Positions 1-9,675 are shown, numbered from the stretch's first letter. The stretch is DNA of 64,000 nucleotides from Candidatus Aegiribacteria sp. (GCA_030620995.1 JAUXIK010000001.1:65796-129795), one strand, 5' to 3'. Notes: generated from the letters alone by a model not told the origin. Program-made: numbers and translations.

Positions 1-194
1 TTCCAGTAATCATCCGGTTCGTCAACCTGTTTTCTGAAGACAACACATGCTACCAGATCACCTGTATCTTCACCTGGAATGGACAGGTACAAATGAAGGC
101 GATCTCCAGCATCGTTTGGTCTGTCCTGCACATCAGTGATTTCTATTGCTGGCTGAAGAAGCATCAGGGCGGTGAGTACGATTGAATTTATCAT
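1..194 (-). CDS. hypothetical secreted protein, N-terminal fragment (gene runs off the left window edge)
   Basis: The ATG at 194 reads leftwards as MINSIVLTALMLLQPAIEITDVQDRPNDAGDRLHLYLSIPGEDTGDLVACVVFRKQVDEPDDYW and stays open to position 1. It has a hydrophobic N-terminus followed by a motif block resembling the ectodomain of the 5235..6560 protein. It is absent from the ORF track because it is truncated. Confidence 0.45.
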   Translation of the reverse strand, partial: MINSIVLTALMLLQPAIEITDVQDRPNDAGDRLHLYLSIPGEDTGDLVACVVFRKQVDEPDDYW

Positions 195-1938: not shown

Positions 1939-2014
<76 letters not shown>

Positions 2015-2930: not shown

Positions 2931-3560
2931 TTATTCAATTAAATGCAGCCAGTCTCCAAGCAGATACTGAATTCTGCCGATCAGAAGGCTGATACGGCCC
3001 ATGACGGTGAAACCGAAAGTGGCTCCGAAACCGAGCATGATAACCCAGATACCAATTTTCGAACCCGTGCCGAAGAAAAGCCCCTTGTGCGGCTTGGAAA
3101 AGAAGAAGTAGATGAGAGCCGCAAGGGTTCCGAATATCATCACGATATTCCCGAAGACCTCGTACCATGGCATTCCAGAAGAGTAGAGAGGAACCATAGC
3201 AGCTTCAAGCTGGCGAAGCACATATGCCTTCATTGTGAGTGGGAAGGCTACACCCATCGCAGTACCCATGATAAAGGCGATGGGATATCTTGAAAGCCAT
3301 GCAATACTGGGTATGAACCTGGTAATGTACAGCAAACCTAGCAAACCTGGAATAATGAGTATCAAGTGATTGCCGGCGAATATAGGTTCAAGAAGTTTAG
3401 GAAGTATGACTGAATTGTAGATCAGAACCATCGTATATCCCAGAGAAATACCAACAACCAGGTGTTCAGCAAGGCGATAGACAGGGTTCTCCTTGTAAAG
3501 GAATGAGTAAATGGCAAGCGTGAAGAAAGCGCCAACCCAGATTCCTATTGTATCGTACAT
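2931..3560 (-). CDS. polytopic membrane protein, about 6 TM (P4 of the unknown four-gene operon)
   Basis: 209 aa with six hydrophobic segments. It starts 3 nt after the upstream gene ends. It shares a C-terminal IMLGFGATFG motif with the 4566..5210 protein. Confidence 0.75.
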   Translation of the reverse strand: MYDTIGIWVGAFFTLAIYSFLYKENPVYRLAEHLVVGISLGYTMVLIYNSVILPKLLEPIFAGNHLILIIPGLLGLLYITRFIPSIAWLSRYPIAFIMGTAMGVAFPLTMKAYVLRQLEAAMVPLYSSGMPWYEVFGNIVMIFGTLAALIYFFFSKPHKGLFFGTGSKIGIWVIMLGFGATFGFTVMGRISLLIGRIQYLLGDWLHLIE

Positions 3561-3563
3561 CTT

Positions 3564-4565
3564 CTACCTCCTTCCCTTCAGCCTGGTCTTTTTATGGAAA
3601 CCGCCTGCGAAAAACGCGATGTTACCCATTATGATCAGAAGGATTATGAATATATGCGCAGCTGACTGCACATCCATACCTCTGAAGGCTTTACCAGTTG
3701 TCCTGGTTATGCCGTTCTCCTTGAGCAGCACTTCGTATTCCGCGGCTCCTCTAAGTCCGCCCATCTGCCCGACGATCTGACCGGACTGTATGTATGGGAA
3801 GTAATCAGTTGCCATAACACCTGTTACACCAAATGCGATGGGAAGTCCTATTTTCTCCCTGGCATAAGTTATCCAGGCCGTGCAGGCAGCTGATCCGGAA
3901 GTAGTAAGGGCAAGATCCACCTCGCGAAGGCTTTTATGTTCCATTAATATGGGCATTCCCCCAATTGGATTATTATGATAATCCACAGGGAACTGTGTTT
4001 CGATGGAACCCGTCATTCCGAGTATTACAAGGTGAAAAAGAGGAAGGTATCCCAGCAAAACGTAATCCCTTCCCTCGAAGACCCAGCCTGCAGCACCTTC
4101 CGAAAGCACGTTTCCGTCACTTTCCCAGGCAGCTGTAAGTTCTTCTTTATTAGTAATACCGGCCTCGCGATAATCCGCCCAATCCTCAAAAAGAACTCTT
4201 TCATAGTAGCCATCCGTCTTAGGATTTGTGACGTAATCAAGAGCTGCAACAGCCATTCCCTTACCAAGCGGCACATACGCAGTCATAAACACAGGAATGC
4301 GGTTGTGAAATGCGTGCCTCATGACAGCTACGGCCATCGGCATATTCTCAGCCTGAGTTCCCGGCGCAAAATCGAATCCTATGAAGATGGCGTCATCCGG
4401 TCCGAGTTCATCCACATAATCGAAAATACCCTCAACCTCTATTGTTGTAGTTATCGGCATTCCAAATCCAATGAGGAATGGAACGATCGACACTATTCCT
4501 ATGCCAAGGAAGATCCAGCGCCTGTCAACGTTCAACATTTTTTCCCAGATATTCACAGCGCTCAC
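3564..4565 (-). CDS. bitopic membrane protein with a roughly 270-aa central domain (P3 of the unknown operon)
   Basis: 333 aa. It has an N-terminal TM (WIFLGIGIVSIVPFLIGF) and a C-terminal TM (AAHIFIILLIIMGNIAFFAGG). It directly abuts the upstream gene (4565/4566). Confidence 0.75.
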   Translation of the reverse strand: MSAVNIWEKMLNVDRRWIFLGIGIVSIVPFLIGFGMPITTTIEVEGIFDYVDELGPDDAIFIGFDFAPGTQAENMPMAVAVMRHAFHNRIPVFMTAYVPLGKGMAVAALDYVTNPKTDGYYERVLFEDWADYREAGITNKEELTAAWESDGNVLSEGAAGWVFEGRDYVLLGYLPLFHLVILGMTGSIETQFPVDYHNNPIGGMPILMEHKSLREVDLALTTSGSAACTAWITYAREKIGLPIAFGVTGVMATDYFPYIQSGQIVGQMGGLRGAAEYEVLLKENGITRTTGKAFRGMDVQSAAHIFIILLIIMGNIAFFAGGFHKKTRLKGRR

Positions 4566-5210
4566 CTACTTCCCTGCTCCGCCGAGCCAGTTACGCTCGA
4601 CGCCAAATATTATTTTAAGGTTGGTTGCCAGCATTCCGAACCCGACTCCCAGCATGATCGCACGCTTGGCAGCAAGGTTGGGATAACGGAGTATCCACAG
4701 TCCGGTGTTCGGAAGCCATTTTCCAAGAACATCACCGATCGGAACCTGGCCAAGCATGACGATTACAGCTGCAAGTAACAGTATGGTTGCCAGTGCTGAC
4801 TTTGCTCTGAAAGCCCTGAAAGCGGCGCTTGCGATATAGAAAGCAAGCAGGCTGAACATTGTGGATTGAATCGGTACCTGAATATGCATGAACAGAAAAT
4901 CGTGAACTCCATGCACTTCCGATCCGCCGCCAAGTGATTGAGGTACAATTAGAGCAAAGAAAGGCATTCCGAACAGCGGTATCAGCACAGCCCAGCTGTA
5001 CTGCCAGTTTTTGGCCTTCCTGCGTATTTTATGCGTATGCAATCGCGTAAGACTACCGACACCAAGTATTAAAGCGAAAGCTCCCACAATCGGAGCCCAC
5101 TCAACATAATTGTCTAAAATTACCTGAGAGTATTGATGTGGAATGAAATACTGAACCATCATCAGTATTCCGCCCACCATCACGATCATAAGCGGAACAG
5201 TTCTTTTCAC
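4566..5210 (-). CDS. polytopic membrane protein, about 6 TM (P2 of the unknown operon)
   Basis: 214 aa. The start is GTG at 5210, preceded by AAAGGAG with an 8-nt spacer. The C-terminal motif is IMLGVGFGM. Confidence 0.75.
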   Translation of the reverse strand: MKRTVPLMIVMVGGILMMVQYFIPHQYSQVILDNYVEWAPIVGAFALILGVGSLTRLHTHKIRRKAKNWQYSWAVLIPLFGMPFFALIVPQSLGGGSEVHGVHDFLFMHIQVPIQSTMFSLLAFYIASAAFRAFRAKSALATILLLAAVIVMLGQVPIGDVLGKWLPNTGLWILRYPNLAAKRAIMLGVGFGMLATNLKIIFGVERNWLGGAGK

Positions 5211-5234
5211 TGTTCTTTCTCCTTTCCGGTGGGC

Positions 5235-6560
5235 TTACTCAACAATGGACACGGTTACCAGATTGCGCAACCAGTCCAGTGTGTGAGTATTTGCAACAAG
5301 ATCAAGAATTCCAAGAACCAGCGCAAGCGTTATCAAACTCATGACAATAGCCTTGCACGCATCCTGTCCCTTAACCGCTCCTATCTGCTTGGGTTCATGT
5401 CCCAGATAAGCGCTGGCAGCGTACAGTTCCTCACCGATTAAAGTGTAATCGCATGTAGTGATGAAGAAAGGCAGCTGAGTCACGGCATCGGTTCCCGCTA
5501 TCTGTATCGCTCCGGAAAGTGATCCGGTTTCAGCAAGTATGAGAGATTCAGCATAGAACATACCGAGGTAGAAGTTGGTCGCTGGTCTGTCTCGCATCAT
5601 AATTCCATTGACACCTGCAACATATGCGAACTGACTCTGTGTCAGAAAGAAAACTGAATCCTGATCATAGGAATCCGGACGTCCAGCTTCAAGGTAAGCC
5701 TGCTTTACAACCTCCTCTGCAACAGTGTATACAATCGGATCGTAATTCGGGACTATTATTCGAGTCTGATATTCTGCAATCTTTCTCGCGACCCGTCCAA
5801 GAATTGTAAGACTGGCAATTGTCGCTACATCAGAGATTGTTGAAATCCCGGGAACATAGAGAATGGGTTTGCCCATCTCCGTCGCTCTTCCAATAGCTTC
5901 ATCGATCGCCTCTATGCCGGCTATCGGTCTGAGATACATCTTTGCGCCTCTCTGAGCTCTGCCGAAGTAGTAGAAAATGAGAAGAATGAACAGAGAAGCG
6001 GCGATCAGCAATCTGACTTTGTCGGTATGGAACCATTCACCTTCCGCAGCTACCGTTGCACCGTAAACCGGACCAAAATACTCAGCATCTTCCAAAGATA
6101 CAGAAGCGATTTTGTATTCGTACAAGATTCCTGGTTCTATTGGGTATTCAGGATCGTATCCGTCTATAAACTCCGACGGCTCATCAGCAGGAATTACCTT
6201 GACAAGATTCCAGGTATCTTCGCTTTCCTCGCCGATTACACGTCTATAGACATTGTAACAGTGAATACCTTCAGGATTCACAGCAGGTTCAAACGTAACA
6301 ACAAGTTGATTTCCAGCATTGTTGGGTTTGTCCTGAACAGTAATCATGCCTGGTATATCTAACCCGGGATCAGTTTCCAGCAGCGGTTCTCCTGCTACAG
6401 GCTGAGTTTCAGTTTCCTCAGCAGCAGCATCCTCTGTCACCACTTCTGAAACGGTATCATCAGTGGGTGTCAAATTTTCGACACTATCCTGGGCCGCGGA
6501 CAGTGAAGGGATCATAAGGAGAATCAGAGCGGCTGGAATACCTATCCAGTTAATCCGCAT
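5235..6560 (-). CDS. secreted/membrane protein: signal peptide, acidic linker, Ig/fn3-like ectodomain, TM, roughly 230-aa domain and C-terminal TM (P1 of the unknown operon)
   Basis: The ORF track begins at a TTG at 6587. The ATG at 6560 (MRINWIGIPAALILLMIPSLSAAQD) has an AAAGGTGG SD 4-5 nt upstream and starts directly with a signal peptide. Confidence 0.75.
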   Translation of the reverse strand: MRINWIGIPAALILLMIPSLSAAQDSVENLTPTDDTVSEVVTEDAAAEETETQPVAGEPLLETDPGLDIPGMITVQDKPNNAGNQLVVTFEPAVNPEGIHCYNVYRRVIGEESEDTWNLVKVIPADEPSEFIDGYDPEYPIEPGILYEYKIASVSLEDAEYFGPVYGATVAAEGEWFHTDKVRLLIAASLFILLIFYYFGRAQRGAKMYLRPIAGIEAIDEAIGRATEMGKPILYVPGISTISDVATIASLTILGRVARKIAEYQTRIIVPNYDPIVYTVAEEVVKQAYLEAGRPDSYDQDSVFFLTQSQFAYVAGVNGIMMRDRPATNFYLGMFYAESLILAETGSLSGAIQIAGTDAVTQLPFFITTCDYTLIGEELYAASAYLGHEPKQIGAVKGQDACKAIVMSLITLALVLGILDLVANTHTLDWLRNLVTVSIVE

Positions 6561-6594
6561 GGATCCACCTTTCACTTTAGTGTTCAACAGTGTT

Positions 6595-7509
6595 CTATTC
6601 GAAAAATTCGTTTATCTCGCGGGCTACTTCAGCTCCTACACGCTTCTTCGCGGCCGAGCTTCCGGCCCCGATGTGAGGGGTAGCCACGGTTCTTTCATAT
6701 TCCACAAGGGGATTCCCCGTGGCTGGTTCCTCTTCGAAGACATCAACTCCGGCGGCAAAAACCTTCCCGGAATTCATTGCGTCAAGAAGGGTTGCTTCAT
6801 TGATGGTTCCGCCTCTGGCGCAGTTCACTATTACAACGCCATCCTTCATCATATCGAATTGCTTCGTATCAAGAAGGTAATGAGTTTCTTTATTGTGAGG
6901 AATATGAAGACTGATAAAATCGGATTCTCTGCAGAGTGTTTCCAGATCAACTTTCTTCGCTTCTATTCCGTCAACGCTGTCTATGTACGGATCGAAGAAA
7001 ACTACATCCATCTCGAATCCCTTTGCGCGTCTGGCGACTTCCTGAGAGATTCTGCCAAAGCCGATCAGACCTAGTGTAGAGTGCCAGAGTTCCTTGCCCT
7101 TACCGTATGCTTTCTTGTTCCATTCACCCTGCTTCATCGTGCAGTTGGCCGGTCCGAGGAAGCGGCTGCATGCAAGCATATGGGCAATTGCAAGCTCTGC
7201 AACGGCGACACTGCTTGCCGAGGGTGTATTTCTTACGGCAATGCCAAGATCAGCCGCTACATCAAGATCAACATTATCAAGACCAACGCCGCCGCGAACC
7301 ACAAGCTTCAGATTTCCAGCGGCTCCCTTTTCAAGTACGGGCTTCCTTACCTTTGTCGCGCTTCTGATGACCAGCGCATCAAACGCCGGAGCGGTTTCAA
7401 TCAGTTCTTCAGGTGTCATGCCGGTTTTCTCGACAACCTCGTGTCCGCCTTTCCGGATTGCTTCAAGAGCATCTTCAGCAACCGGATCACAGATAAGTAT
7501 TCGTGCCAT
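6595..7509 (-). CDS. D-isomer-specific 2-hydroxyacid dehydrogenase, short phosphoglycerate-dehydrogenase-like form
   Basis: 304 aa. It has the NAD fold GLIGFGRISQEVARRA and a catalytic region ending TPHIGA. No ACT domain is present. Confidence 0.85.
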   Translation of the reverse strand: MARILICDPVAEDALEAIRKGGHEVVEKTGMTPEELIETAPAFDALVIRSATKVRKPVLEKGAAGNLKLVVRGGVGLDNVDLDVAADLGIAVRNTPSASSVAVAELAIAHMLACSRFLGPANCTMKQGEWNKKAYGKGKELWHSTLGLIGFGRISQEVARRAKGFEMDVVFFDPYIDSVDGIEAKKVDLETLCRESDFISLHIPHNKETHYLLDTKQFDMMKDGVVIVNCARGGTINEATLLDAMNSGKVFAAGVDVFEEEPATGNPLVEYERTVATPHIGAGSSAAKKRVGAEVAREINEFFE

Positions 7510-7611: not shown

Positions 7612-8547
7612 CTATTCCTCCAGTAATTTCACAGCTTTAAATACTATCATTTCAGCTGTAAGTTCGTACTCTTCTCTCACTTCAGCGGGAGTACCGCTTG
7701 TTCCGAAACTGTCTCTGACCGCAACGACACCCACAGGAACAGGATGCTCTGGCGCAAGGGTTTCGGCCACAGCTCCAAACAACCCTCCTACTGCCTGGTG
7801 ATCTTCAGTGACAACAACTGCTCCGGTTTTTTTCGCCTGCTCAATTAGAAGCTTCCTGTCGAGCGGTTTGACGGATACCATATCGATAACTCCAGCTGAG
7901 ATTCCACGTTTCGACAGTATCTCTCGAGCGGTGAGCGCCATGCTGACCATGGCTCCGCATGCGACCAGGGTTATGTCACTTCCATCCTCCAGAAGATGCC
8001 CCCTACCTATTTTAACTGATGCGTCAACAGGATATATCTGTGGAACAGGATTCCTCCCGAAGCGGATGTAAACCGGACCGGCCGTGTTCACGGAAGTCAG
8101 TACCGCGGCTCTGGTCTGATTCGCATCAGCCGGTACAAGCACATGCATATTGGGAAGCACACGCATCAGGGCAACATCCTCAAGAGCCTGATGAGTGGCT
8201 CCGTCAGGACCCACACTTACTCCTCCATGAGCGCCGGCGATCTTTACGTTCAGATTCATGTAGCAGATGCTCGTTCTTATCTGATCCCATGCTCTTCCGG
8301 CAACGAAAACGCCGTATGTGCCAACGAATGGAATGAATCCAGCCAGCGCGAGTCCTGCCGCTTCTCCAAGCATGTCCTGCTCACTGACTCCAAGATTGAA
8401 AAACCTTTCAGGAAATTCCTCGCCGAACGATGCGCTTCCGATCGACCTCGAGACATCTCCTTCAATTACCACTACGCGATCGTTCTCTCTGCCTGCCTGA
8501 AGGATTCCTTCAACGTAACCTTCTCTTGTGGGTCTGAGGTTTTTCAT
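7612..8547 (-). CDS. transketolase, C-terminal (pyrimidine-binding) subunit
   Basis: 311 aa. It overlaps the N-terminal subunit gene by 4 nt. The EQDMLGEAAGLA and GATHQALEDVA motifs are present. Confidence 0.9.
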   Translation of the reverse strand: MKNLRPTREGYVEGILQAGRENDRVVVIEGDVSRSIGSASFGEEFPERFFNLGVSEQDMLGEAAGLALAGFIPFVGTYGVFVAGRAWDQIRTSICYMNLNVKIAGAHGGVSVGPDGATHQALEDVALMRVLPNMHVLVPADANQTRAAVLTSVNTAGPVYIRFGRNPVPQIYPVDASVKIGRGHLLEDGSDITLVACGAMVSMALTAREILSKRGISAGVIDMVSVKPLDRKLLIEQAKKTGAVVVTEDHQAVGGLFGAVAETLAPEHPVPVGVVAVRDSFGTSGTPAEVREEYELTAEMIVFKAVKLLEE

Positions 8548-9374
8548 GAGAGTCCTCCATGAATTTCCTCAACAGCGGCTTCGTATTCCTTTTCATCGGG
8601 ACACCTTCCGTGCCAGAGACAGGTGTTTTCCATAAAGGATACGCCTTTACCTTTAACGGTATTCGCGATGATAACCGATGGAAATTCGGTTTCACCGCAA
8701 TGTTCAAATGCCTTTTCGAGGGAAATAAAACTGTGACCGTCAGCGACGATCACATCCCATCCGAATGCAAGCCATTTGTCTACAAGAGGTTCGATCTCCA
8801 TGACATCAGATACGTGTCCATCAAGCTGTACAAGATTCCTGTCCACAATTGCGGTAAGATGTTTTAGATCGTAGTGAGACGCGGTCATCGCCGCTTCCCA
8901 GATATTTCCCTCCTGAAGCTCGCCATCACCGAGAAGACAGTAAACGCGGCTTTTCCTTTTATCAAGTCGGATCCCGTGAGAAATCCCACACGCAATCGAC
9001 AGACCTTGACCGAGACTTCCTGTGGAAGCGTCCAATCCCGGCAGTTTACTCATATCCGGATGTCCCTGGAGCCTTGAATTGAATTTCCTGAGTGTCAACA
9101 GTTCGGCAGGATCAAAGTATCCTCTTCTGGCAAGTACGGAATAGAGAGCCGGGCAGGCATGACCCTTGGATAGAATAAATCTGTCCCTGTCTTCCCAGTT
9201 CGGTTCTTCCGGACGTATTCTCATGATTTTCCAGTAGAGTTCGACAAGAATCTCAACCGTGGAAAAAGATCCCCCGGGATGCCCGCTGCCCGCTGCCCGT
9301 ATCATCTCCAGAACATCAAGCCTCACACGATTAGCAATTGGGGTCAAACCTTGTATTTTAACATTTTCCATCAT
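8544..9374 (-). CDS. transketolase, N-terminal (TPP-binding) subunit
   Basis: 276 aa. It has SGHPGGSFS and the TPP motif GDGELQEGNIWEA, as in the split transketolase arrangement. Confidence 0.9.
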   Translation of the reverse strand: MMENVKIQGLTPIANRVRLDVLEMIRAAGSGHPGGSFSTVEILVELYWKIMRIRPEEPNWEDRDRFILSKGHACPALYSVLARRGYFDPAELLTLRKFNSRLQGHPDMSKLPGLDASTGSLGQGLSIACGISHGIRLDKRKSRVYCLLGDGELQEGNIWEAAMTASHYDLKHLTAIVDRNLVQLDGHVSDVMEIEPLVDKWLAFGWDVIVADGHSFISLEKAFEHCGETEFPSVIIANTVKGKGVSFMENTCLWHGRCPDEKEYEAAVEEIHGGLS

Positions 9375-9675
9375 TAACTGATTCCAATCAAACTATAAAT
9401 GTTGCAATCTATAGATATTACTGAACAGGAAGGTATATGACTATTTTGCAAACATCACCTCCGCCAAAAAGGTTCTCGATAACTTCCACCTCGACAGGCA
9501 TTTGAAGAATAGCATCTCCTGCACTGGAATCAATCGCACTATTCAATTTGCGCAACCATTGTTTTTCGAAATCGTATGCTTCAGGCATTAGTTTCATTTC
9601 TTCAGTAAATATTACATTTATATATTAAATATTCCTATTATCACGAACAAATGTTAAAATACAAGGTTTGACCCC

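What the first reader, a model, noticed from the sequence alone, without database searches (positions are those of the whole stretch)
2931..6587. Four-gene membrane operon that looks like a duplicated two-gene module, with no recognisable family
Four same-strand ORFs are packed with gaps of 24, 0 and 3 nt, which suggests co-translation. P1 (5235-6560) has a signal peptide, an acidic linker and an Ig/fn3-like ectodomain (ITVQDKPNNAGNQLVV ... YNVYRRV). This is followed by a TM, a roughly 230-aa domain and a C-terminal TM. P2 (214 aa) has about 6 TM. P3 (333 aa) has an N-terminal TM, a roughly 270-aa domain and a C-terminal TM. P4 (209 aa) has about 6 TM. P2 and P4 are the same size and share a C-terminal IMLG(V/F)G..FG motif. 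P1's C-domain and P3 share the bitopic layout and weak motif similarity (..I(L/F)(Y/I).. then R-I-(I/P)-V). So the operon reads as (bitopic subunit + 6-TM subunit) x2. I see no Walker motifs, HExxH, heme or FeS motifs, and no transporter or secretin signature. It sits between a serA-like dehydrogenase and a DUF2400 gene. This is the strongest candidate for an uncharacterised envelope or transport complex in the window.
Basis: partly seen in the sequence, partly recalled or inferred. Interest (0 to 1): 0.75.

Follow-up and report, generated by a model that had tools for sequence, protein, structure and literature searches.

The report
Conserved uncharacterised four-protein membrane machine

Summary
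The four minus-strand genes exist as described: P1 5235-6560, P2 4566-5210, P3 3564-4565, P4 2931-3560, with gaps of 24, 0 and 3 nt. The window comes from Candidatus Aegiribacteria (Fermentibacterota).

P1 has a signal peptide, an fn3 domain, then TM + Pfam DUF6754 + TM. P3 has a Rossmann-like domain between two TM helices (AF2 pLDDT 90), with no PDB relative. P2 and P4 are roughly 6-TM proteins with no family.

The order P1-P2-P3-P4 is invariant in about 140 loci. These come from Fermentibacterota, Zixibacteria, Eisenbacteria, Ignavibacteria, Riflebacteria and Bradymonadales. The cassette often occurs as 2-3 tandem copies.

Profile-profile tests find no P2/P4 or P1C/P3 homology, so the "duplicated two-gene module" reading is not supported. 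The unit that duplicates is the whole cassette.

New finding: in most lineages the cassette follows an accessory set. This set is a 2-TM protein, a small protein, a GlmL/MutL-like ASKHA ATPase and a barrel-sandwich-hybrid (BSH) protein. In Fermentibacteraceae the ATPase and BSH protein are fused into one 916-aa protein directly after P4. None of these accessory genes lies in this window.

No paper, Pfam function, PDB entry or defence model covers the system. My best reading is the membrane core of an ATPase-coupled trans-membrane machine. Its function is unknown.

The parts
5235..6560 (-). P1 (441 aa). Signal peptide (aa 1-23), acidic linker, periplasmic fn3 domain (aa 73-162), TM helix (179-203), cytoplasmic DUF6754 alpha/beta domain, C-terminal TM helix (390-423).
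   Evidence: ORF; RBS and ATG 6560. Pfam PF20539 at E 3.7e-116. AF2 model. Foldseek fn3 hits. At least 8000 homologue clusters.
6075..6344 (-). fn3 ectodomain of P1 (aa 73-162). It carries the family-wide invariant D-x-P-N-D-x-G motif (D77, N80, G83).
   Evidence: AF2 beta-sandwich with pLDDT about 85. Foldseek hits to titin, neogenin and fibronectin fn3 at E 1e-5 to 5e-4. Invariant columns across phyla.
5295..6044 (-). DUF6754 region of P1 (aa 173-422). Its most conserved stretch is aa 336-386 (AESLxLAETG...IQIAGT...PFFxxxCDYTLIGEELYAASAYL).
   Evidence: Pfam match; invariant columns. The AF2 model has pLDDT below 50 exactly over aa 336-374.
4566..5210 (-). P2 (214 aa). Polytopic protein with about 6 TM, N-terminus inside. 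Invariant motifs: TMFSLLAFxIASAAxRAFRA, an arginine-rich cytoplasmic end of TM4, and PNxAAKR...LGxER.
   Evidence: No Pfam, NCBIfam or PDB relative.
3564..4565 (-). P3 (333 aa, or 330 aa from GTG 4556). Cytoplasmic N-terminus with an invariant DRRW motif, TM 15-32, periplasmic Rossmann-like alpha/beta domain 42-283 with a lineage-specific insert of about 50 aa, TM 292-320 with invariant D298, Q300, H304 and N315, and a basic C-terminal tail.
   Evidence: Alignment. AF2 pLDDT 90.1 and pTM 0.86. No Foldseek PDB match (best E 2e-3, TM 0.25). 4423 representatives in the exhaustive search. Topology.
2931..3560 (-). P4 (209 aa). Polytopic protein with about 6 TM, N-terminus outside. Invariant motifs: SFLYKxNPxY..E, TRF...WLSR, YFFFSxxHxG and FGxxFGxTVMxR.
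   Evidence: No Pfam, NCBIfam or PDB relative.
1..194 (-). N-terminus (64 aa, cut by the window edge) of a second, orphan P1/DUF6754 paralogue. It carries the DVQDRPNDAGD fn3 motif. Relatives have this gene after the GNAT gene.
   Evidence: The translation matches the paralogue in L010. The same synteny is seen in L006, L010, L017, L020, L027 and L066.

Best explanation
The four genes encode the subunits of one hetero-oligomeric inner-membrane complex, which I call the DUF6754 cassette. It is the membrane core of a larger, conserved and so far unstudied machine.

Shown:
- P1 spans the membrane twice. It puts a variable fn3 ectodomain in the periplasm and an extremely conserved Rossmann-like DUF6754 domain in the cytoplasm.
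- P3 spans the membrane twice in the opposite sense and puts a different Rossmann-like domain in the periplasm.
- P2 and P4 are conserved polytopic subunits.
- The four genes always travel together in this order.
- In most lineages they directly follow four accessory genes: a 2-TM protein, a small hairpin/coiled-coil protein, a GlmL/MutL-like ASKHA (actin/Hsp70-fold) ATPase with intact phosphate-1 and phosphate-2 motifs, and a barrel-sandwich-hybrid (BSH) protein.

Inferred:
- The ATPase/BSH pair docks on the cytoplasmic face. Candidate docking sites are the DUF6754 domain, the arginine-rich P2 loop and the P3 DRRW motif.
- ATP-driven conformational change passes through P2 and P4 to the periplasmic P3 domain and the P1 ectodomain.
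- The result is either movement of a substrate across the membrane or work on an envelope component.
- P1 is an exchangeable specificity subunit, because orphan P1 paralogues exist and its ectodomains are highly variable.
- One ATPase set serves one to three cassettes.

In this Aegiribacteria window only the core and one orphan P1 are present. The accessory genes must lie elsewhere in the genome or be absent. The transported or modified substrate is unknown.
For: - Translational coupling and RBS sites.
- Invariant gene order: all 80 species-level genome loci scanned with P3; Bradymonadales, Riflebacteria and three further remote loci; and the cassette-bearing metagenome loci.
- Tandem repetition: 2-3 whole cassettes occur side by side.
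- Accessory genes appear in three different arrangements. They lie upstream in Eisenbacteria-type loci, downstream in Riflebacteria L090, and as a 916-aa GlmL-BSH fusion directly after P4 in Fermentibacteraceae.
- Reverse test. I fetched 80 metagenome loci with the BSH protein alone. Of those carrying small+GlmL+BSH, 17 are followed by P1-P2-P3-P4, 2 are not, and 10 are too short to tell.
- A further accessory gene of about 150 aa with 2 TM occurs in 26 loci.
- Topology by the positive-inside rule on 84-130-sequence families.
- Large CARDB-like and HEAT insertions fall in the P3 loop, and P1 ectodomains run up to about 1000 aa. This fits exposed, adaptable periplasmic parts.
- The most conserved DUF6754 segment is unmodelled in the monomer, as expected for an interface.
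Against: - No experiment or physical-interaction prediction was possible, so the complex is inferred from gene order only.
- The accessory genes are absent from this 64-kb window and from the +/-6 kb flanks of all Aegiribacteria loci. The core may therefore work without them.
- About half of BSH loci with long flanks have no cassette (11 of 24), so the ATPase/BSH pair is not exclusive to this system.
- GlmL-family proteins are known, from background knowledge, as accessory proteins of B12 mutases and not as membrane-machine motors.
- No ASKHA-driven transporter is known.
- No conserved neighbour points to a substrate.
Confidence: 0.4

Rival explanations
1. Self-contained secondary transporter or channel. 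P2 and P4 form the permeation pathway and the double-anchored periplasmic P3 domain acts as a tethered substrate-binding domain. P1 is a regulatory or anchoring subunit, and no ATPase is needed.
For: - The window and all Aegiribacteria loci lack the ATPase genes.
- P2 and P4 are the size of small permease subunits.
- The weak P3 hits are to periplasmic sugar-binding proteins: Foldseek 5ix8 and 4ru1 at E 6e-3 to 1e-2, and AcbH at E 0.5.
- Tandem paralogous cassettes resemble paralogous transporter operons.
Against: - The binding-protein hits are not significant (TM-score 0.15-0.2).
- There are no internal or inverted repeats in P2 or P4.
- No transporter family appears in Pfam, NCBIfam or PDB profile searches.
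- The tight, multiply rearranged linkage to an ATPase in most lineages argues for energisation.
Confidence: 0.2
2. Membrane-bound envelope-biogenesis enzyme complex. The periplasmic P3 domain or the cytoplasmic DUF6754 domain is catalytic, for example modifying a glycan, lipid or peptidoglycan. The GlmL-like ATPase would act as a maturation or reactivation chaperone, as GlmL, EutA and DdrA do for B12 enzymes.
For: - Invariant acidic and polar residues cluster on the P3 domain: D65, T70, E73, D167, D195, D254, E276 and E278.
- Envelope genes lie nearby in several lineages. These include GT4 and GNAT here, Wzy_C and Wzz in Riflebacteria, SLT lytic transglycosylases, and PS decarboxylase.
- The GlmL family is annotated as an enzyme accessory protein.
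Against: - No neighbour recurs beyond clade-level synteny (at most 9 of 53 loci).
- No catalytic-family match appears by Pfam, PDB sequence search or Foldseek.
- The GlmL-like protein scores far below the GlmL equivalog cut-off (238 vs 475 bits).
Confidence: 0.15
3. The operon is an ancient duplication of a two-gene module (bitopic subunit + 6-TM subunit), giving a pseudo-symmetric heterotetramer.
For: - The gene pattern alternates bitopic, polytopic, bitopic, polytopic.
- Both bitopic subunits carry an alternating beta-alpha Rossmann-like domain between two TM helices.
- P2 and P4 are of similar size.
- The predicted opposite orientations of P1C vs P3 and P2 vs P4 would fit an antiparallel pair.
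Against: - BLASTP, jackhmmer and hhalign find nothing above mismatched controls, even with diverse 114-131-sequence profiles.
- The conserved motifs of the paired proteins are unrelated.
- The shared IMLGxG string is low-complexity TM sequence.
Confidence: 0.12
4. Trans-membrane sensor or signalling complex. The variable periplasmic fn3 and P3 domains sense an envelope or external cue and relay it to the cytoplasmic DUF6754 domain and its partners.
For: - The periplasmic parts vary strongly while the cytoplasmic domain is near-invariant.
- Domains sit on both faces of the membrane.
Against: - No kinase, cyclase, HTH or other output domain appears in any of the eight gene families or their recurrent neighbours.
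- Four membrane subunits plus an ATPase is unusual for a sensor.
Confidence: 0.08

Closest known systems
Pfam PF20539 (DUF6754) / proteins annotated by NCBI as "fibronectin type III domain-containing protein"
   Same: P1 is a full-length member (E 3.7e-116, 250 of 257 profile positions). Homologues carry these source names.
   Different: The entry is only a catalogued domain of unknown function. No paper mentions it. The entry does not cover P2, P3, P4 or the operon.
GldA/GldF/GldG-type ABC-2 transporters with an auxiliary subunit (Flavobacterium gliding; from background knowledge)
   Same: Both pair a bitopic subunit, anchored by N- and C-terminal TM helices around a large periplasmic alpha/beta domain, with a permease subunit of about 6 TM. 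Both occur in FCB-group bacteria and are coupled to a cytoplasmic ATPase.
   Different: P1-P4 do not match ABC2_membrane, ABC_transp_aux or ABC_tran. The linked ATPase is ASKHA-fold, not ABC. A second bitopic subunit has a cytoplasmic domain.
ECF transporters with a shared energising module (from background knowledge)
   Same: Both have small membrane subunits of about 200 aa and 6 TM, and one cytoplasmic ATPase set shared by several membrane modules. Here one trio precedes 1-3 cassettes. P2 has an arginine-rich cytoplasmic motif reminiscent of EcfT coupling helices.
   Different: There are no EcfA, EcfT or S-component profile hits and no ABC ATPase. P1 and P3 have no counterpart.
GlmL/MutL, EutA and DdrA: ASKHA-fold accessory or reactivating ATPases of B12 enzymes
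   Same: The linked ATPase matches Pfam MutL PF13941 at E 1e-128 and the NCBIfam GlmL models. It keeps the DxGSTxTK and DIGGATTD phosphate motifs (sequence).
   Different: It scores below every NCBIfam cut-off (238 vs 475 bits). It carries a C-terminal extension of about 120 aa or is fused to the BSH protein. It is linked to membrane proteins rather than to a mutase. It is absent from this window.
MreB-MreC-MreD/RodZ (actin-fold ATPase with bitopic and small polytopic membrane partners; from background knowledge)
   Same: An ASKHA-fold cytoplasmic protein is encoded with a bitopic periplasmic-domain protein and a small polytopic protein. Lytic transglycosylase genes are occasional neighbours.
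   Different: No profile similarity was found. GlmL-type proteins are not known to polymerise. Tandem cassette copies and variable ectodomains have no parallel.

Membership tests
Pfam PF20539 DUF6754 | Profile match above the gathering score (27 bits) over the whole domain. | tested here: met
   P1 residues 173-422 score 387 bits, E 3.7e-116, covering profile positions 2-251 of 257.
Fibronectin type III fold (P1 ectodomain) | Seven-strand beta-sandwich superposable on solved fn3 domains. | tested here: met
   AF2 strands lie at 73-162 with pLDDT about 85. Foldseek probability is 1.00 to titin, neogenin and fibronectin fn3, with target-normalised TM 0.55-0.83. Pfam PF00041 itself is not hit in the window protein at E<=1, but it is in some homologues.
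   BLASTP E 0.47. hhalign probability 0.3-0.9%. Comparisons of half-proteins are negative.
   BLASTP E 9. hhalign probability 0.6-0.7%, aligning only TM helices. A fold-level comparison of the two models could not be run.
ABC / ECF transporters | An ABC ATPase gene in the conserved neighbourhood, and permease, EcfT or S-component profile matches. | tested here: not met
   P1-P4 and family members give no such Pfam or NCBIfam hits. No ABC ATPase is among the recurrent neighbours.
GldF/GldG-type ABC-2 transporter with auxiliary subunit | Matches to ABC_transp_aux (PF09822) and ABC2_membrane. | tested here: not met
   No hit at E<=1 for P3, P2 or P4, or for 15-30 family members each.
MotA/ExbB/TolQ-type ion-driven stators | MotA_ExbB and ExbD/MotB profile matches. 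| tested here: not met
   No hits.
Extended DUF6754 system (cassette plus 2-TM protein, small protein, GlmL-like ATPase and BSH protein), defined here | Accessory genes adjacent to the cassette. | tested here: not met
   Neither tblastn nor a six-frame HMM search finds any of the four accessory families in the 64-kb window. They are present next to the cassette in Fermentibacteraceae, Eisenbacteria, Riflebacteria and 17 metagenome loci. The rest of this genome could not be searched.
GlmL (methylaspartate mutase accessory protein), tested on the linked ATPase in related loci | NCBIfam equivalog cut-off (475 bits) and a mutase gene context. | tested here: not met
   238 bits for NF040745 and 177 vs 204 bits for TIGR01319. 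The neighbours are membrane proteins, not glmS/glmE.
Known anti-phage defence systems | Match to a PADLOC model. | tested here: not met
   No hit at E<=1 for any of the four proteins.

The most novel reading that the evidence does not exclude
The cassette is the membrane part of a new class of envelope machine, found across many mostly uncultured phyla. In this class an actin/Hsp70-fold (GlmL-like) ATPase, rather than an ABC, AAA+ or P-type ATPase or an ion-driven stator, powers transport or mechanical work across the cytoplasmic membrane. Interchangeable P1 subunits would set the periplasmic specificity.
Probability: 0.3. Interest if true: 0.85.

Novelty: categorically new. Interest (0 to 1): 0.7.

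Why it matters
The P3 family alone has 4423 representatives at 50% identity, and DUF6754 has at least 8000 clusters at 90% identity. Even so, three of the four core proteins and three of the four accessory proteins have no family entry, no solved or similar structure and no literature.

The system is a large blind spot in the envelope biology of Fermentibacterota, Zixibacteria, Eisenbacteria, Ignavibacteria, Riflebacteria and Bradymonadales. If the linked ASKHA ATPase really energises the complex, that would add a new energy-coupling principle for membrane machines.

This work also gives a concrete eight-gene definition. With it, the system can be annotated and tested by AlphaFold-Multimer, cryo-EM or genetics in a cultivable carrier.

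Tried and rejected
- Pfam, NCBIfam and PADLOC scans of P1-P4 found only DUF6754. Family-wide Pfam scans of P2, P4 and P3 gave only scattered noise.
- PDB sequence and profile searches for P1, P2, P3, P4, the BSH protein and the GlmL-BSH fusion found nothing significant.
- Foldseek of the P3 model against the PDB gave only generic Rossmann-like hits (best E 2e-3, TM 0.25). Foldseek of the P1 model was swamped by fn3 hits, so the DUF6754 domain could not be assessed on its own.
- The duplication hypothesis was rejected at the sequence level using BLASTP, jackhmmer, hhalign with small and large alignments, and half-protein comparisons.
- Biotin or lipoyl carrier role for the BSH protein: the candidate lysine is not conserved, so I rejected it. 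The LplA-like neighbour is clade-specific (9 of 53 loci).
- B12 binding by the Rossmann-like domains: no conserved DxHxxG motif is present.
- Promoter and terminator scans around the operon gave counts no higher than shuffled sequence, so the transcription unit boundaries stay open.
- A search for further recurrent neighbours found nothing beyond the accessory set.
- Literature searches for DUF6754, PF20539, PF13941 and GlmL/ASKHA returned nothing relevant.

Full report
**Observation**

The region holds four minus-strand ORFs:
- P1: 5235-6587 from TTG. The real start is ATG 6560, which lies 6 nt after AAAGGTGGA, giving 441 aa.
- P2: 4566-5210, GTG start after AAGGAG.
- P3: 3564-4565. An alternative start is GTG 4556, which gives the 330-aa form seen in the 100%-identical database protein P0001.
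- P4: 2931-3560, ATG start after GGAGG.

The flanking genes are a D-2-hydroxyacid dehydrogenase (6595-7509) and a DUF2400 protein (2078-2875). A tRNA-Phe, a GT4 glycosyltransferase and a GNAT gene follow. Promoter-like and terminator-like sites are no more frequent than in shuffled sequence. The four genes therefore sit inside a long co-directional array whose transcript limits are unknown. Homologues at 92% identity come from Candidatus Aegiribacteria MAGs, so the window is from Fermentibacterota.

**Anatomy**

P1 residues 173-422 match Pfam PF20539 (DUF6754) at E 3.7e-116. Nothing else in Pfam or NCBIfam matches P1-P4.

The AF2 model of P1 has mean pLDDT 71. In order it shows:
- a signal peptide;
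- a disordered acidic linker;
- a beta-sandwich at 73-162, which Foldseek assigns to fn3 (titin, neogenin and fibronectin; E 1e-5 to 5e-4);
- a TM helix at 179-203;
- an alternating helix-strand domain;
- a 34-residue TM helix at 390-423.

The most conserved stretch of the whole family is AESLxLAETG...IQIAGT...PFFxxxCDYTLIGEELYAASAYL, which is invariant across phyla. This is exactly the part the monomer model cannot place: pLDDT is below 50 at residues 336-374.

P3 is modelled with confidence (pLDDT 90.1, pTM 0.86). It has an amphipathic N-terminus with an invariant DRRW motif and a TM helix at 15-32. A Rossmann-like beta-alpha domain spans 42-283, and a TM helix at 292-320 carries invariant D298, Q300, H304 and N315. 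A basic tail ends the protein. Foldseek against the PDB finds nothing better than E 2e-3 and TM 0.25. PDB profile searches are also empty.

P2 and P4 each show about six hydrophobic segments and strong private motifs. They have no relatives in Pfam, NCBIfam or the PDB.

I applied the positive-inside rule to families of 84-130 sequences. It places the P3 domain in the periplasm, because both P3 termini are basic. It places the DUF6754 domain in the cytoplasm. P2 comes out N-in and P4 N-out.

**Is it a duplicated two-gene module?**

No evidence supports this:
- BLASTP gives E 0.47 for P2 vs P4 and E 9 for P1 vs P3.
- Three-round jackhmmer families of the four proteins share no member.
- hhalign gives probabilities of 0.3-0.9% for the proposed pairs, the same as or lower than the mismatched control pairs. 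This held with first-pass alignments and with alignments of 114-131 diverse sequences.
- Half-protein comparisons are also negative.

The shared IMLGxG string is real, but it is ordinary glycine-rich TM sequence. Both bitopic proteins carry beta-alpha domains of similar secondary-structure order, so a very old fold-level relation cannot be excluded. I could not superpose the two models.

**Conservation**

- A scan of one genome per GTDB species with the P3 profile found 303 encoding stretches. In all 80 loci kept, the order P1-P2-P3-P4 on one strand is intact wherever the contig allows. These loci come from Fermentibacterota, Zixibacteria, Eisenbacteria and Ignavibacteria.
- Outside Fermentibacterota the cassette is usually present as two, and sometimes three, tandem copies.
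- An exhaustive profile search finds 4423 P3 representatives at 50% identity, 820 of them below E 1e-30.
- DUF6754 saturates the 8000-candidate limit of the word-indexed search.
- Remote members show the same four genes: Bradymonadales, Riflebacteria (named through), a genome that also encodes a T9SS-tailed protein, and two others.
- P1 ectodomains range from almost nothing to about 700 extra residues.
- Long P3 members carry CARDB-like repeats, HEAT repeats or coiled coils at the same loop where the window protein has its 50-residue insert.
- Fermentibacterota also keep an orphan P1 paralogue downstream. Its first 64 codons are visible at window positions 1-194.

**A larger system**

In Eisenbacteria-type loci three genes precede the cassette on the same strand:
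- a protein of about 125 aa;
- a 600-aa protein matching Pfam MutL PF13941 (E 1e-128). It matches the NCBIfam GlmL models below their cut-offs and has intact ASKHA phosphate motifs;
- a 374-aa protein with weak Biotin_lipoyl and RnfC_N (barrel-sandwich hybrid, BSH) matches.

In Riflebacteria the same three genes follow the cassette. In Fermentibacteraceae a 916-aa fusion of the ATPase and the BSH protein starts 77 nt after P4.

I then ran the reverse test, fetching 80 metagenome loci with the BSH profile alone:
- Of the 24 loci with at least 6 kb on both sides, 13 carry the cassette.
- Among loci with the full trio, 17 are followed directly by P1-P2-P3-P4, 2 are not, and 10 are too short to tell.

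A fourth accessory gene, about 150 aa with 2 TM and no Pfam match, precedes the trio in 26 loci. No other neighbour recurs beyond clade synteny. None of the four accessory families is encoded anywhere in the 64-kb window.

**Interpretation**

Three lines of evidence point one way. Gene order is invariant. Whole cassettes duplicate as units. The accessory genes are linked to the cassette in three arrangements: upstream, downstream and fused. Together these are the classical signatures of subunits of one machine.

I infer a hetero-oligomeric inner-membrane complex with domains on both faces of the membrane. It would be coupled in most lineages to an actin/Hsp70-fold ATPase, with P1 as an exchangeable periplasmic specificity subunit. 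What it moves or modifies is unknown.

The rivals are listed with their evidence in the rival-explanations section.

**Comparison with known systems**

Only P1's domain is catalogued, and only as a DUF. Searches of the literature for DUF6754, PF20539, PF13941 and GlmL/ASKHA gave nothing relevant, and PADLOC gave nothing.

The nearest known architectures are three: GldFG-type ABC-2 transporters with a double-anchored periplasmic auxiliary subunit, ECF transporters with a shared energising module, and MreBCD. None passes a membership test here.

**Verdict**

The claim of an uncharacterised envelope complex is supported and extended to an eight-gene system. The duplicated-module reading is not supported. 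I rate the system as far from every characterised kind and of high but still speculative interest.

Noticed in passing
window 1-194 (-): This is the start of a second, orphan DUF6754/P1 paralogue (MINSIVLTALMLLQPAIEITDVQDRPNDAGDRL...). It runs off the left edge of the window, downstream of the GNAT gene, as in related Aegiribacteria loci.
   Followed up: yes
L035, L039, L040, L042, L045, L057 at about 7700-10450 (Fermentibacteraceae): A 916-aa fusion of the GlmL/MutL-like ASKHA ATPase with the barrel-sandwich-hybrid protein lies directly after P4. It is a Rosetta-stone link between the two accessory proteins and the cassette.
   Followed up: yes
L073, L082, L092, L097, L103, L105, L107, L150, L152 and 17 more loci: A further conserved accessory gene of about 150 aa lies upstream of the small protein and the ATPase. 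It has two TM helices and a C-terminal globular part, and has no Pfam family.
   Followed up: partly
P1 residues 336-374 (window 5439-5555, -): The most conserved segment of the whole DUF6754 family is the only part of the domain that AlphaFold cannot place (pLDDT below 50, no secondary structure). This is unexplained. It may be an interface or a re-entrant element.
   Followed up: no
L078, L107 (and L071, L080, L085, L087): Two to three complete P1-P2-P3-P4 cassettes lie in tandem behind a single accessory-gene set. L078 and L107 show at least three cassettes.
   Followed up: partly
proteins P0379, P0380, P0448, P0431: Some P3 relatives have large insertions at one loop: CARDB-like beta-sandwich repeats, HEAT repeats or coiled coils. 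One protein (P0379) is a tandem P3-P3 fusion.
   Followed up: partly
window 4556-4565 (-): The P3 start codon is ambiguous. GTG 4565 abuts the P2 stop codon. GTG 4556 (MNIWEK...) matches the start of most homologues and has AGGTGA 6 nt upstream.
   Followed up: partly
window 7612-9374 (-): Transketolase is split into separate N-terminal (8544-9374) and C-terminal (7612-8547) genes that overlap by 4 nt. A UvrD/PcrA-type helicase gene lies upstream at 9676-11853.
   Followed up: no
window 1939-2014 (-): A tRNA-Phe (GAA) gene lies between the DUF2400 gene and the GT4 glycosyltransferase gene.
   Followed up: no
L092 11681-13993; L092 and L093 flanks: In two remote lineages the cassette lies next to SLT lytic transglycosylase genes. 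In L092 it also lies next to a 770-aa pentapeptide-repeat protein and two FGE-sulfatase-domain (GldJ/GldK-like) proteins. This is a possible envelope or gliding link, seen in too few loci to count.
   Followed up: no
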